Shown here one piece after another: positions 52,495-53,376 of a stretch of DNA of 64,000 bases. Source of the DNA: a phage. The position numbers and the translations under genes were made by a program. Numbering within the stretch: the stretch's first letter is position 1; the number at the start of each line of letters is the position of its first letter. The notes beneath the pieces were generated by a model, which saw only the letters and a list, made by a program, of their open reading frames with translations, did no database searches and was not told the DNA's origin. The stretch is taken from the NCBI GenBank assembly GCA_024911895.1, contig GCA_024911895.1_3948.1; one strand, 5' to 3'.

Positions 52495-52607
52495 ACCAGA
52501 CCGTTGTTTATCATCTTAAGTGCTACCATTACACCAACTCGACATCTGCCGAGTGAAGGAATCGAACCTTCGCCTTTTCTTTACCGGAGAAATAGATTGT
52601 TTAAAGT

Positions 52608-52635
52608 TTGCTGTAAACGGTCTTCTGTAAATTTG
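52608..52635. repeat. Repeat box copy A (TTGCTGTAAACGGTCTTCTGTAAATTTG)
   Basis: Identical core to copy at 53180-53208. Confidence 0.6.
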
Positions 52636-52694
52636 TTGAGCCAGACCAAGTTTTAAATTTTCAAAATTAAATTGGCTTGAAATTTCATACATTC

Positions 52695-52715
52695 TTGCTG
52701 TATTTGGTCTTCTGC
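52695..52715. repeat. Repeat box copy D (TTGCTGTATTTGGTCTTCTGC)
   Basis: Degenerate copy of same box, preceded by CCAGACC at 52641-52647. Confidence 0.5.
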
Positions 52716-52747
52716 TCCTTTAAAGAATACTCGTAAGAACTCTTTAA

Positions 52748-52759
52748 GGGGGGGGGGGG
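52748..52759. repeat. Homopolymeric G12 tract in non-coding DNA
   Basis: 12 consecutive G. Confidence 0.8.
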
Positions 52760-52804
52760 CTAAATAGCCCTCTCAAACATCATTTTGAAATACTTATTAT
52801 AATT

Positions 52805-52882
52805 TGGCGGTTACGAAGGGATTTGAACCCTCATCATCTCCCGTGACAGGGGAGTATTTTAACCAGATTAAACTACATAGCC
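52805..52882 (-). tRNA. tRNA-Asp (GUC)
   Basis: Anticodon arm CTCCC-CTGTCAC-GGGAG. Confidence 0.7.
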
Positions 52883-52888
52883 TTTATT

Positions 52889-52976
52889 TGGTGTGCCGTG
52901 TAGGAGTCGAACCTACCGAGTCTCAATGACAAGGGATTTACAGTCCCCACCGCTACCATCTACGGGATAACGACAC
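52889..52976 (-). tRNA. tRNA-Tyr (GUA), type II
   Basis: Anticodon arm GGGGA-CTGTAAA-TCCCT, long variable arm, T-stem GTAGG/CCTAC. Confidence 0.75.
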
Positions 52977-53045
52977 ATTTAATTTCTATTCAGGCTAAGG
53001 ACTTGCACCTTACAAATCGGTGAGCAATCGCTTCTCTCCTAAATT

Positions 53046-53122
53046 TGGCGGTTAGTCAGGGATTCGAACCCTGTGCCATTCGCTTAACAGGCGACCGCAC
53101 ATACCTTATGTGCTTCCTAACC
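53046..53122 (-). tRNA. tRNA-Asn (GUU)
   Basis: Anticodon loop CTGTTAA. Confidence 0.7.
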
Positions 53123-53179
53123 ATGTTTAGTATTGCCAGACCGTATCTTTCAATTTTTCCGCTAAAAATTTAATAAGTA

Positions 53180-53208
53180 TTGCTGTAAACGGTCTTCTGT
53201 AAATTTGG
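53180..53208. repeat. Repeat box copy B (TTGCTGTAAACGGTCTTCTGTAAATTTGG), abuts 3' end of tRNA at 53206
   Basis: Matches copy A; preceded by CCAGACC at 53136-53142. Confidence 0.6.
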
Positions 53209-53282
53209 AGGCGGGTGCAGGAGTCGAACCTGCCGATACCATGCTAATGAGACATGTGAGACGCCCTTTCTCTATACCCGCA
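53206..53282 (-). tRNA. tRNA with CAU anticodon (Met or Ile2)
   Basis: Anticodon loop CTCATTA; D region irregular. Confidence 0.55.
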
Positions 53283-53345
53283 ATTCTTAATGACCAGACC
53301 AAATCTCTTCTTTGTCCGATTTACCTTCAGATGAATAAGATTAAG

Positions 53346-53376
53346 TTTGCTGTAATTGGTCTTCTGTCAAAACTGG
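53346..53376. repeat. Repeat box copy C (TTTGCTGTAATTGGTCTTCTGTCAAAACTGG), abuts 3' end of tRNA-Glu
   Basis: Preceded by CCAGACC at 53294-53300. Confidence 0.55.

What the first reader, a model, noticed from the sequence alone, without database searches (positions are those of the whole stretch)
52496..53376. Family of four repeated boxes (TTGCTGTAANNGGTCTTCTG) each paired with an upstream CCAGACC motif inside the tRNA array
The box occurs at 52608-52635, 52695-52715, 53180-53208 and 53346-53376, each 40-110 nt to the right of a CCAGACC motif (52496, 52641, 53136, 53294). Two copies end in the TGG that is the CCA end of the adjacent tRNA. On the transcribed strand the box reads TTTACA or TTGACA followed by GAAGACC, so each unit could be a promoter, a processing signal, or a small hairpin RNA.
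Basis: seen in the sequence. Interest (0 to 1): 0.6.

Follow-up and report, generated by a model that had tools for sequence, protein, structure and literature searches.

The report
Phage Y-like RNAs beside Ro60-like gene
The four repeated boxes are the conserved ends of four small structured RNAs in a Felix-O1-type phage tRNA array; they belong to a large RNA family absent from Rfam 15 that sits next to genes for a Ro60-like ring protein, and they look strikingly like the "Class I" RNAs of social amoebae.

Summary
The box occurs 4 times against 0.09 expected, and each copy is paired with a CCAGACC.

On the transcribed (-) strand, box and CCAGACC are the two strands of a 7-bp helix. The helix closes four hairpin RNAs of 70-138 nt. 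A single-stranded UUACAGCAA follows the 5' strand directly.

Unit 1 encloses a permuted tRNA-like domain (V hairpin, T arm, capped acceptor hairpin, D arm), as in bacterial YrlA Y RNAs.

The gene just upstream on the same strand (53701-55116, Pfam DUF2828+DUF7788) is predicted to have the full Ro60 fold.

The same RNA module flanks DUF2828 genes in phages of Proteobacteria, Campylobacter, Mycobacterium, Listeria, Staphylococcus, Enterococcus and Bacillus. In 80 independent genome loci it gave 129 hits on the gene strand and 3 on the opposite strand. A covariance model built only from those loci ranks the four units as the top four hits in the window.

Rfam 15 has no matching family. The nearest model is Dictyostelium Class I RNA, below threshold.

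Most likely these are Y-RNA-like partners of a Ro60-like protein. Binding and function are inferred, not shown. The promoter reading is not supported.

The parts
53291..53369 (-). Unit 4, a short RNA. Lower stem UGAC (53369-53366) / GUCA (53294-53291). Internal loop AGA on the 5' side and G (53295) on the 3' side. 7-bp stem AGACCAA (53362-53356) / UUGGUCU (53302-53296). Box UUA-CAGCAA (53355-53347). Variable loop in between.
   Evidence: R2 covariance model 22.0 bits, E 0.02. Rfam Class I model 19.7 bits. Kept in 6 Ounavirinae genomes with a different loop interior.
53133..53202 (-). Unit 3, a short RNA. Lower stem UUAC (53202-53199) / GCAA (53136-53133). Stem AGACCGU (53195-53189) / ACGGUCU (53144-53138). 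G at 53137. Box UUA-CAGCAA (53188-53180).
   Evidence: R2 29.5 bits, E 4.7e-4, the best hit in the window. Rfam Class I 20.3 bits. The lower stem shows a compensatory change: UUAC/GUAA in EC6, ESh21 and Sf16 (Moogleviruses), UUGC/GCAA in DR094 and SUSP2.
52638..52717 (-). Unit 2, a short RNA. Lower stem GAGC (52717-52714) / GCUC (52641-52638). Stem AGACCAA (52710-52704) / UUGGUCU (52649-52643). G at 52642. Box AUA-CAGCAA (52703-52695).
   Evidence: R2 20.3 bits, E 0.047. Conserved in 6 Ounavirinae genomes.
52493..52630 (-). Unit 1, a long RNA. Lower stem UUAC (52630-52627) / GUAA (52496-52493). Stem AGACCGU (52623-52617) / ACGGUCU (52504-52498). G at 52497. Box UUA-CAGCAA (52616-52608). Encloses a tRNA-like domain.
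   Evidence: R2 26.0 bits, E 2.7e-3. Rfam Class I 14.7 bits and weak tRNA 24.7 bits.
52520..52592 (-). tRNA-like domain of unit 1, in permuted order. V hairpin UUUCU-CCGGUAA-AGAAA (52592-52576). T arm GAAGG-UUCGAUU-CCUUC (52571-52555). Capped acceptor-like hairpin ACUCGGC-AGAU-GUCGAGU (52554-52537). D arm GUGU-AAUGGUA-GCAC (52534-52520).
   Evidence: MFE fold. In ESh21 and Sf16 (Moogleviruses) and SUSP2 the acceptor-like hairpin is fully replaced by ACACGU-UACG-GCGUGU, while the T and D arms are unchanged or differ by 1 nt. The same V-T-AS-D order is described for YrlA (PMC4201824).
53701..55116 (-). Gene for a 471-aa Ro60-fold protein (Pfam DUF2828 + DUF7788, phrog_850 'RNA-binding protein', vWA MIDAS motif DVSSS). 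It lies directly upstream of the array on the same strand.
   Evidence: Pfam. PHROGs. AlphaFold2 model pLDDT 85.9, pTM 0.86. The top 11 Foldseek PDB hits are all full-length Ro60/Rsr/phage phiLo Ro60, E 1e-8 to 2e-6, TM 0.47-0.66.
53562..53682 (-). Two sigma-70-like promoters (TTGACA-17-TAATAT at 53682-53654; TTGACA-18-TAAAGT with TG at 53591-53562). They lie between the Ro60-like gene and tRNA-Pro and are the likely start of the precursor carrying tRNAs and units.
   Evidence: Consensus matches only; transcription was not measured.

Best explanation
The four boxes and their CCAGACC partners are the protein-binding ends of four small non-coding RNAs on the - strand.

Architecture of each RNA:
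- a 4-bp lower stem;
- an AGA/G internal loop;
- a 7-bp stem, AGACCNN paired with NNGGUCU;
- a single-stranded UUACAGCAA immediately after the 5' strand of that stem;
- a variable interior.

Three units hold a small hairpin in the interior. Unit 1 holds a tRNA-shaped domain whose acceptor end is capped by a loop, as in YrlA.

The RNAs are made as part of the tRNA-array precursor, which starts at promoters just downstream of a gene for a Ro60-fold protein (DUF2828/DUF7788). Ordinary tRNA processing (RNase P, endonucleases, 3' trimming) is inferred to release them.

By analogy with Ro60-Y RNA particles, the stem plus CAGCAA box is inferred to dock on the Ro60-like ring. The variable or tRNA-like part would then recruit or mimic a partner, such as tRNA-handling enzymes or an exoribonuclease like PNPase. 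That would give the phage a ribonucleoprotein acting on tRNA or structured-RNA quality control, repair or turnover during infection.

Shown: the RNA architecture, its covariation, family membership and the tight linkage to DUF2828 genes. Inferred: transcription and processing in this phage, physical binding, and the biological role.
For: 1. Structure. All four units fold with the same closing helix. The NN pairs and the lower stems covary between units and between Ounavirinae genomes.

2. tRNA-like domain. Unit 1 has V-T-AS-D order. Its AS hairpin is wholly replaced by a compensating one in ESh21, Sf16 and SUSP2, while the T and D arms are unchanged or differ by 1 nt. This matches the YrlA description.

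3. Neighbouring protein. Its model has the full Ro60 fold. Homologues are annotated 'Ro-like RNA binding protein' in mycobacteriophages.

4. Same module in distant phages. It sits next to DUF2828 genes in Yersinia, Aeromonas, Campylobacter, Mycobacterium, Listeria, Staphylococcus, Enterococcus and Bacillus phages. In 39 units from 11 phages, positions 5-10 before CAGCAA pair in 39/39, with 3-5 pair types per position. All 7 pairs show two-sided changes.

5. Independent test. In 80 DUF2828 loci from the genome collection (844 kb) there were 129 descriptor hits on the gene strand and 3 on the other strand. 63 of 80 loci were positive, mostly within about 900 nt upstream of the gene.

6. Independent model. 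Model R2 was built only from those genome loci. Run over the whole window without filters, it ranks the four units 1-4 at 29.5, 26.0, 22.0 and 20.3 bits. The next hit scores 17.9.

7. Natural negative control. An Erwinia Kolesnikvirus from the same subfamily has the tRNA array but no DUF2828 gene in the 16-kb stretch examined, and it has no unit there.

8. Not tied to tRNAs. 33 of 60 unit-bearing loci have no tRNA gene within 6 kb.

9. Permuted versions. In other loci the stem+box module replaces the anticodon loop of an otherwise complete tRNA-like RNA. This points to a module tethered to a tRNA shape.

10. Expression hint. In Listeria phage cka15, three unusually abundant unannotated RNAs lie within 2 kb upstream of the Rsr-like gene, and the authors suggested they might be Y RNAs (PMC12282133). 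The three units there sit behind a TTGACA-17-TATCAT promoter.
Against: - There are no expression or end-mapping data for this phage and no binding data for any DUF2828 protein.
- The canonical Ro60 motif GNCGAAN0-1G is absent at the expected place. The Rfam YrlA model does not match unit 1 and matches only the tRNA-like core of the mycobacteriophage unit, below threshold.
- The protein is not detected as TROVE by sequence. Only the fold matches.
- One Vibrio phage with a DUF2828 gene has no unit within 6 kb.
- 17 of 80 genome loci gave no strict hit. Several of these are short contigs.
- E-values for units 2 and 4 are modest (0.047 and 0.02), and the model calibration is rough.
- Units used for the covariation counts were chosen by their ability to pair, so the percentage paired is partly circular. 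The strand asymmetry, the fixed register and the independent loci are the unbiased evidence.
Confidence: 0.75

Rival explanations
1. Each box is a sigma-70 promoter (-35 TTGACA/TTTACA) driving a sub-operon of the tRNA array.
For: Three of four units carry TTTACA or TTGACA just before GAAGACC. Unit 3 gives a minimal promoter-like match, TTTACA-16-AATACT, 9/12.
Against: - Only one of four passes even the minimum score, and the region has no excess of promoter-like sites (7 against 6.6 expected).
- The hexamer is part of a lower stem that covaries with its 3' partner, and it reads GGAGCA in unit 2.
- Homologous units in other phages and in 80 genome loci have no such hexamer.
- Strong promoters exist upstream of the array.
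Confidence: 0.03
2. The units are only cis-acting spacer hairpins that guide endonucleolytic processing of the tRNA precursor. They would have no stable product and no protein partner.
For: They lie between tRNA genes. Two start 4-5 nt after a tRNA CCA end. Hairpins between tRNAs are common processing sites (general knowledge).
Against: - The same module occurs beside DUF2828 genes in 33 of 60 loci that have no tRNA gene nearby.
- It is absent from the tRNA array of a related phage that lacks the gene.
- A 9-nt single-stranded box, invariant across phyla, and an enclosed tRNA-like domain kept by compensatory change are not expected of mere spacers.
Confidence: 0.1
3. The units are binding sites (operators or decoys) for the Ro60-like protein on its own transcript or on the array precursor. 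They would serve autoregulation or titration rather than acting as trans-acting partner RNAs.
For: In most genome loci the units lie 0-900 nt upstream of the gene on the same strand, where a leader would be.
Against: - In this phage and in the Staphylococcus and Mycobacterium phages they lie downstream of the gene. Here they are also behind separate promoters and tRNAs.
- There are up to 5-8 tandem copies per locus, some enclosing complete tRNA-like bodies with CCA ends.
- Canonical Y RNA genes also sit next to Ro60 on the same strand.
Confidence: 0.1
4. The units are decayed remnants of tandem tRNA genes, or a short mobile repeat with inverted ends, and have no function.
For: Unit 1 contains tRNA halves in the order 3' half then 5' half, as a decayed tandem duplication would leave. 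Rfam gives a weak tRNA hit of 24.7 bits.
Against: - The acceptor-like hairpin is kept by full compensatory replacement with a 4-nt cap.
- The same architecture recurs in phages of distant hosts with unrelated stem sequences.
- The gene-strand bias is 129 to 3.
- Loop interiors diverge freely while stem and box are held.
Confidence: 0.02

Closest known systems
Bacterial and phage Y RNAs of the YrlA/YrlB type (Rfam RF02553; Chen et al. 2014, PMC4201824), and Yrl1/Yrl2 of Thermus phage phiLo (PMC12135203)
   Same: - Small RNAs encoded within a few kb of a Ro60-fold gene on the same strand, several per locus.
- The 5' and 3' ends pair to form a stem with a conserved motif near the 5' end.
- One RNA per locus carries a tRNA-like domain in V-T-AS-D order with a capped acceptor stem. 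The others are short, like YrlB.
- The tRNA-like core of the mycobacteriophage Krypton555 unit matches the YrlA model (38.3 bits, model positions 24-84).
   Different: - The partner protein is DUF2828/DUF7788, not a TROVE-annotated Ro60. It resembles Ro60 only at fold level.
- The conserved motif is UUACAGCAA after a 7-bp stem, not GNCGAAN0-1G or CGAA in a bulged helix.
- No unit reaches the YrlA gathering score.
- Here the RNAs are embedded in a phage tRNA array.
Class I RNAs of dictyostelid social amoebae (Rfam RF01414; Kjellin et al. 2021, PMC7919456)
   Same: - Short stem joining the 5' and 3' ends (6 bp there, 7 bp here).
- Followed at the same distance, within 1 nt, by the single-stranded motif CCUUACAGCAA. 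UUACAGCAA is identical in units 1, 3 and 4.
- Variable interior, a 3' tail ending in UG or G, total size about 55-65 nt for the short units, many paralogous copies.
- The Rfam Class I model aligns full-length to the units: 14.7-20.3 bits here and 28-30 bits in an Aeromonas phage.
   Different: - All scores are below the gathering score of 41.5, including in 11 further loci.
- Class I RNAs are eukaryotic, have their own DUSE promoter, and are reported as unique to Dictyostelia.
- Their only demonstrated direct binder is the RRM protein Rnp1A.
- Whether Dictyostelium has a DUF2828 protein could not be tested here.
- Common descent versus convergence is open.
Stable non-tRNA RNAs in phage tRNA clusters, for example T4 species 1 and species 2 RNAs (from memory, not checked here)
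   Same: Small stable RNAs of unknown function, co-transcribed and co-processed with phage tRNAs.
   Different: No sequence or structure comparison was made. No Ro60-like partner is known for them.

Membership tests
Y RNA / YrlA (Ro60-associated RNA) | Encoded within about 4 kb of a Ro60 orthologue on the same strand | tested here: met
   The units lie 332-1208 nt downstream of the stop of gene 53701-55116, on the same strand. The protein model's best 11 PDB matches are all Ro60. The criterion is from PMC4201824.
Y RNA / YrlA (Ro60-associated RNA) | The partner is a TROVE-domain Ro60 recognisable by sequence | tested here: not met
   Pfam gives DUF2828 + DUF7788, not TROVE. No PDB sequence match. 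No NCBIfam match. The similarity is at fold level only.
Y RNA / YrlA (Ro60-associated RNA) | Conserved GNCGAAN0-1G (CGAA) motif near the 5' end | tested here: not met
   No such motif lies next to the closing stem in any unit. A GGCGAAG at 52574-52568 overlaps the T stem of unit 1 but is not kept in Mooglevirus. The conserved motif is UUACAGCAA.
Y RNA / YrlA (Ro60-associated RNA) | tRNA-like domain with V, T, capped acceptor (AS) and D elements in that order | tested here: met
   Unit 1, 52592-52520. The AS hairpin covaries in ESh21, Sf16 and SUSP2. Units 2-4 lack the domain, as YrlB does.
Y RNA / YrlA (Ro60-associated RNA) | Reaches the Rfam RF02553 gathering score (69 bits) | tested here: not met
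   No YrlA hit on unit 1 even at E<=10 in a 171-nt search. The related mycobacteriophage unit scores 38.3 bits on the core only.
Y RNA / YrlA (Ro60-associated RNA) | Physically bound by the Ro60(-like) protein | not testable with these tools
   Needs RIP/CLIP or gel shifts.
Dictyostelium Class I RNA (RF01414) | Short stem joining the 5' and 3' ends, supported by compensatory changes | tested here: met
   7-bp stem. 7 of 7 pairs show two-sided changes across the family.
Dictyostelium Class I RNA (RF01414) | 11-nt motif CCUUACAGCAA next to the 5' strand of the stem | tested here: inconclusive
   9 of 11 positions (UUACAGCAA) are identical in units 1, 3 and 4. Unit 2 has AUACAGCAA. The five positions called near-invariant in Dictyostelia (U3, C6, C9, A10, A11) are present in units 1, 3 and 4.
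Dictyostelium Class I RNA (RF01414) | Reaches the Rfam gathering score (41.5 bits) | tested here: not met
   14.7-20.3 bits in the window. The best anywhere is 29.8 bits. None passes in 11 further loci.
Dictyostelium Class I RNA (RF01414) | DUSE promoter about 60 nt upstream; dictyostelid genome | tested here: not met
   This is a phage genome, and the units lie inside a bacterial-type polycistronic tRNA array.
DUF2828-associated CAGCAA-box RNA (family defined here) | 7 bp at positions 4-10 before CAGCAA, complement 12-135 nt downstream followed by G, on the strand of a nearby DUF2828 gene | tested here: met
   All four units meet it. Model R2, built without any Ounavirinae sequence, ranks them 1-4 in the window.

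The most novel reading that the evidence does not exclude
The stem+UUACAGCAA RNAs next to DUF2828 genes in phages and bacteria may be the same RNA class as the Class I RNAs of Dictyostelium. If so, Class I RNAs are not unique to social amoebae. They would be the Y-RNA-like partners of a second, Ro60-paralogous ribonucleoprotein found in viruses, bacteria and eukaryotes. (DUF2828 genes are reported in plant studies and in mimivirus-like sequences.) The unknown function of Class I RNAs would then become testable through that protein.
Probability: 0.3. Interest if true: 0.9.

Novelty: new variant of a known kind. Interest (0 to 1): 0.8.

Why it matters
Ro60-Y RNA particles are a conserved RNA-surveillance system with links to autoimmunity, and their bacterial and phage biology is still thin.

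This finding points to a second, much larger branch of that system. That RNA has a simple, searchable signature and modular cargo: a hairpin, a permuted tRNA mimic, or a whole tRNA body.

It gives a concrete hypothesis for unexplained intergenic stretches in the tRNA arrays of Felix-O1-type therapeutic phages, and for the very abundant unannotated RNAs seen in a Listeria phage.

The near-identity of the motif with Dictyostelium Class I RNAs offers a testable lead on an RNA class whose mechanism has been open since 2004.

Tried and rejected
- A plain MAFFT alignment of whole units put the 3' strands out of register and was not used for structure.
- A first covariance model from trimmed units (R1) penalised the variable loop. 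It ranked only unit 3 and half of unit 1 at the top of the window. It was used only to collect real units for model R2.
- A sequence search of the protein against PDB chains found nothing. NCBIfam also found nothing.
- The AlphaFold-database fold libraries were not available. I therefore could not ask whether Dictyostelium or other eukaryotes have a DUF2828 homologue.
- The supplementary tables of Chen et al. 2014 and the 2020 Annual Review on bacterial Ro60 are not held. I cannot say whether cluster-L mycobacteriophage units were among their 22 phage hits.
- Literature searches for DUF2828, Ro-like phage proteins and the literal motif found no description of this RNA family.
- A GGCGAAG in unit 1 that fits the YrlA motif pattern was rejected as chance, because it is not conserved.
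- The hairpin at 51146-51182 (UUACAGCUU) and the mini hairpin at 52372-52400 were considered as extra units. They were rejected because they lack CAGCAA in register.
- The one highly transcribed cka15 region for which the Listeria paper gives coordinates is not the three-unit stretch but a neighbouring non-coding stretch. That paper is therefore only suggestive support.
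Full report
**What the window is.** The region is 92-98% identical to many Felixounavirus (Felix-O1-like) genomes. All 25 tRNA genes lie on the - strand.

**Checking the observation.** The 20-nt box occurs exactly four times in 64 kb, at the stated places, against 0.09 expected. A + strand CCAGACC lies 40-110 nt to its left each time.

**Anatomy of the units.**
- Read on the transcribed strand, every unit is: lower stem (4 bp) - AGA - AGACCNN - UUACAGCAA - variable part - NNGGUCU - G - lower stem.
- The NN pairs differ between units but stay complementary (GU/AC against AA/UU).
- So do the lower stems: UUAC/GUAA, GAGC/GCUC, UGAC/GUCA. Unit 3 has UUAC/GCAA with one A.C mismatch.
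- Minimum-free-energy folds give this closing helix for all four.
- Box and CCAGACC are therefore the two strands of one helix, plus a conserved single-stranded motif.

**Unit 1 encloses a tRNA-shaped domain.** The order is permuted: a variable hairpin, a T arm (GAAGG-UUCGAUU-CCUUC), a 7-bp acceptor-like hairpin closed by four bases, and a D arm (GUGU-AAUGGUA-GCAC).
- In Moogleviruses (ESh21, Sf16) and Suspvirus the acceptor-like hairpin is replaced base for base by a different complementary one with a UACG cap.
- The T and D arms there are unchanged or differ by 1 nt, and the loop of the first hairpin changes freely.
- This argues against a decayed pair of tRNA genes.
- It matches the published YrlA architecture of V, T, AS and D elements (PMC4201824).

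**Surroundings.** The ORF directly upstream on the same strand (53701-55116, 471 aa) matches Pfam DUF2828 and DUF7788 and phrog_850 'RNA-binding protein'.
- It has a vWA metal-site motif.
- It has no sequence match in the PDB.
- An AlphaFold2 model built from 33 homologues is confident (pLDDT 85.9, pTM 0.86).
- Its eleven best Foldseek matches in the PDB are all full-length Ro60 proteins: Xenopus, human, Deinococcus Rsr and Thermus phage phiLo Ro60 (E 1e-8 to 2e-6, TM 0.47-0.66). vWA-only hits come far behind.
- Homologues occur in 710 phage records. Some are annotated 'Ro-like RNA binding protein'.
- Two good sigma-70-type promoters lie between this gene and the first tRNA. The boxes themselves are not promoter-like, apart from one minimal match.

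**Related phages within the subfamily.** All four units are present in the same order in three Felixounavirus, one Suspvirus and two Mooglevirus genomes.
- Stems, box and flanks are almost invariant, while loop interiors diverge or are replaced.
- The lower stem of unit 3 switches between UUAC/GUAA and UUGC/GCAA.
- A Yersinia phage whose protein is 53% identical has at least four units with a different stem (GGACUNN/NNAGUCC) but the same box.
- An Erwinia Kolesnikvirus has the tRNA array but no DUF2828 gene in the 16-kb stretch examined. It has no unit there.

**Distant phages.** Beside the DUF2828 genes of Aeromonas, Campylobacter, Mycobacterium, Listeria, Staphylococcus, Enterococcus and Bacillus phages I found the same module on the gene's strand, 2 to 9 copies per locus. 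Usually one long copy holds a V-T-AS-D tRNA-like domain.
- With 39 units from 11 phages aligned on CAGCAA, positions 5-10 upstream pair in 39/39 and position 4 in 36/39, with three to five pair types each.
- Position 11 is a conserved A opposite G. The 3' strand ends in CUG.
- On 24 non-Ounavirinae units all seven pairs show two-sided changes. Pairing falls from 99% to 30-45% when the partner is slid.
- Because these units were picked by pairing, I sought unbiased tests.

**Unbiased tests.**
- A strict descriptor gives four hits on the - strand and none on the + strand in the window. Shuffles average 0.42.
- In the phage loci used to define it, all 38 hits are on the gene strand.
- In 80 fresh DUF2828 loci from the species-representative genome collection (844 kb) it gives 129 hits on the gene strand and 3 on the other. 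63 loci are positive, mostly within 900 nt upstream of the gene.
- A covariance model trained on non-Ounavirinae phage units (R1) found 28 matches in those loci, all on the gene strand.
- A second model built only from these 28 (R2) was run over the whole window with filters off. It ranks the four units first to fourth: 29.5, 26.0, 22.0 and 20.3 bits, E 5e-4 to 0.05. The next hit scores 17.9.
- 33 of 60 unit-bearing loci have no tRNA gene nearby. The module is therefore tied to the protein gene, not to tRNA arrays.

**Variants seen elsewhere.**
- Some units enclose a complete cloverleaf.
- In several loci a 112-126-nt tRNA-like RNA with an ACCA/ACCG end carries the stem+UUACAGCAA module, capped by a 3-nt loop, in place of its anticodon loop.
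- That arrangement is the circular permutation of unit 1.
- Both arrangements tether a tRNA shape to the same module. This fits a protein-binding module joined to an effector domain.

**Comparison with known families.**
- Rfam 15 has no family that reaches threshold on any unit.
- The YrlA model matches only the tRNA-like core of the mycobacteriophage unit, at 38.3 bits against a gathering score of 69.
- The published Ro60 motif GNCGAAN0-1G is absent. The units therefore work like Y RNAs in layout and context but fail sequence-level membership.
- Unexpectedly, the one model that aligns full-length to the short units is Dictyostelium Class I RNA: a 6-bp stem, CCUUACAGCAA, a variable part, the stem complement, then UG. 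It scores 14.7-20.3 bits here and 28-30 bits in the Aeromonas phage, always below 41.5.
- Class I RNAs are reported as unique to Dictyostelia, with an open mechanism (PMC7919456).
- I could not test whether Dictyostelium has a DUF2828 protein. Homology versus convergence stays open.

**Is it already described?** Known phage Y RNAs are those of TROVE-type Ro60 in mycobacteriophages, CcrColossus, Bacillus phage G and phiLo, all with the CGAA motif.
- A 2025 study of Listeria phage cka15 noted an Rsr-like protein, which is a DUF2828 homologue and was also found in virions. It also noted three very abundant unannotated RNAs within 2 kb upstream, and speculated they might be Y RNAs, without defining them.
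- The three units in that phage sit behind a consensus promoter just upstream of the gene.
- I found no paper in the held library that defines this RNA family, links it to DUF2828 in general, or notes the Class I resemblance.

**Verdict.** The finding is real and is not a promoter set. It is four members of a widespread RNA family absent from Rfam 15, most likely the Y-RNA-like partners of a Ro60-fold protein. One member is a YrlA-style tRNA mimic. Transcription, processing, binding and biological role are inferred and need experiment.

Noticed in passing
window 52345-52497 (- strand): Between unit 1 and tRNA-Lys lies a 153-nt hairpin with a perfect 19-bp stem (AAUUAUCUUUGUAGAUAAG / CUUAUCUACAAAGAUAAUU). 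MFE is -48.3 kcal/mol, z = -5.4, and 0 of 200 shuffles fold as well. Inside it, 52372-52400 is a mini hairpin, GCUAC-AGACC-UUAAGCAA-GUCUGG-GUAGC, that echoes the units.
   Followed up: partly
window 52748-52759: A run of 12 G on the + strand (12 C on the transcribed strand), between tRNA-Asp and unit 2.
   Followed up: no
window 51694-51775 and 51474-51548 (- strand): Two odd tRNA-like sequences that ARAGORN does not call. The first has a 7-bp acceptor stem, an anticodon-like arm GCGGU-CUUCUAA-ACCGC (UCU), a T arm and ACCA, and gets a weak Rfam tmRNA hit. Relatives annotate tRNA-Arg(TCT) in this part of the array.
   Followed up: partly
L005 3494-3613; L065 5013-5132 and 5552-5669; L044 5421-5542; L087 1855-1966: tRNA-like RNAs of 112-126 nt (Rfam tRNA 48-52 bits) near DUF2828 genes. 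A capped 7-bp stem followed by (U)UACAGCAA replaces the anticodon loop, and the 3' end reads ACCA, ACCG or similar. This is a circular permutation of the unit 1 topology.
   Followed up: partly
L066 4537-4645; L025 1556-1657; L059 5435-5540; L067 5323-5407: Units whose variable part is a complete cloverleaf called as a tRNA by ARAGORN, including one 'stop' anticodon (tta).
   Followed up: no
L009 6447-6938 (= Listeria phage cka15 26236-26727): The roughly 500-nt non-coding region reported as the most highly transcribed stretch of phage cka15 lies behind a consensus promoter 1 kb upstream of the Ro60-like gene. It has no Rfam match and no CAGCAA unit.
   Followed up: no
window 51146-51182 (- strand): A hairpin, AAGGUUA-UUACAGCUUG...GAACCUU-G, between tRNA-Ser and tRNA-Leu. 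It is box-like but reads CAGCUU, so it may be a degenerate unit.
   Followed up: no
L003 8280-8400 (- strand), L004 10990-11170: In the Erwinia and Yersinia relatives the first element after the array promoter is a tRNA-like sequence, GUGCGGGUGU...GGGUUCGA.UCCCU.CACCUGCUGCUCU.AAGG. In the Yersinia phage it carries a long insertion. It is not annotated.
   Followed up: no
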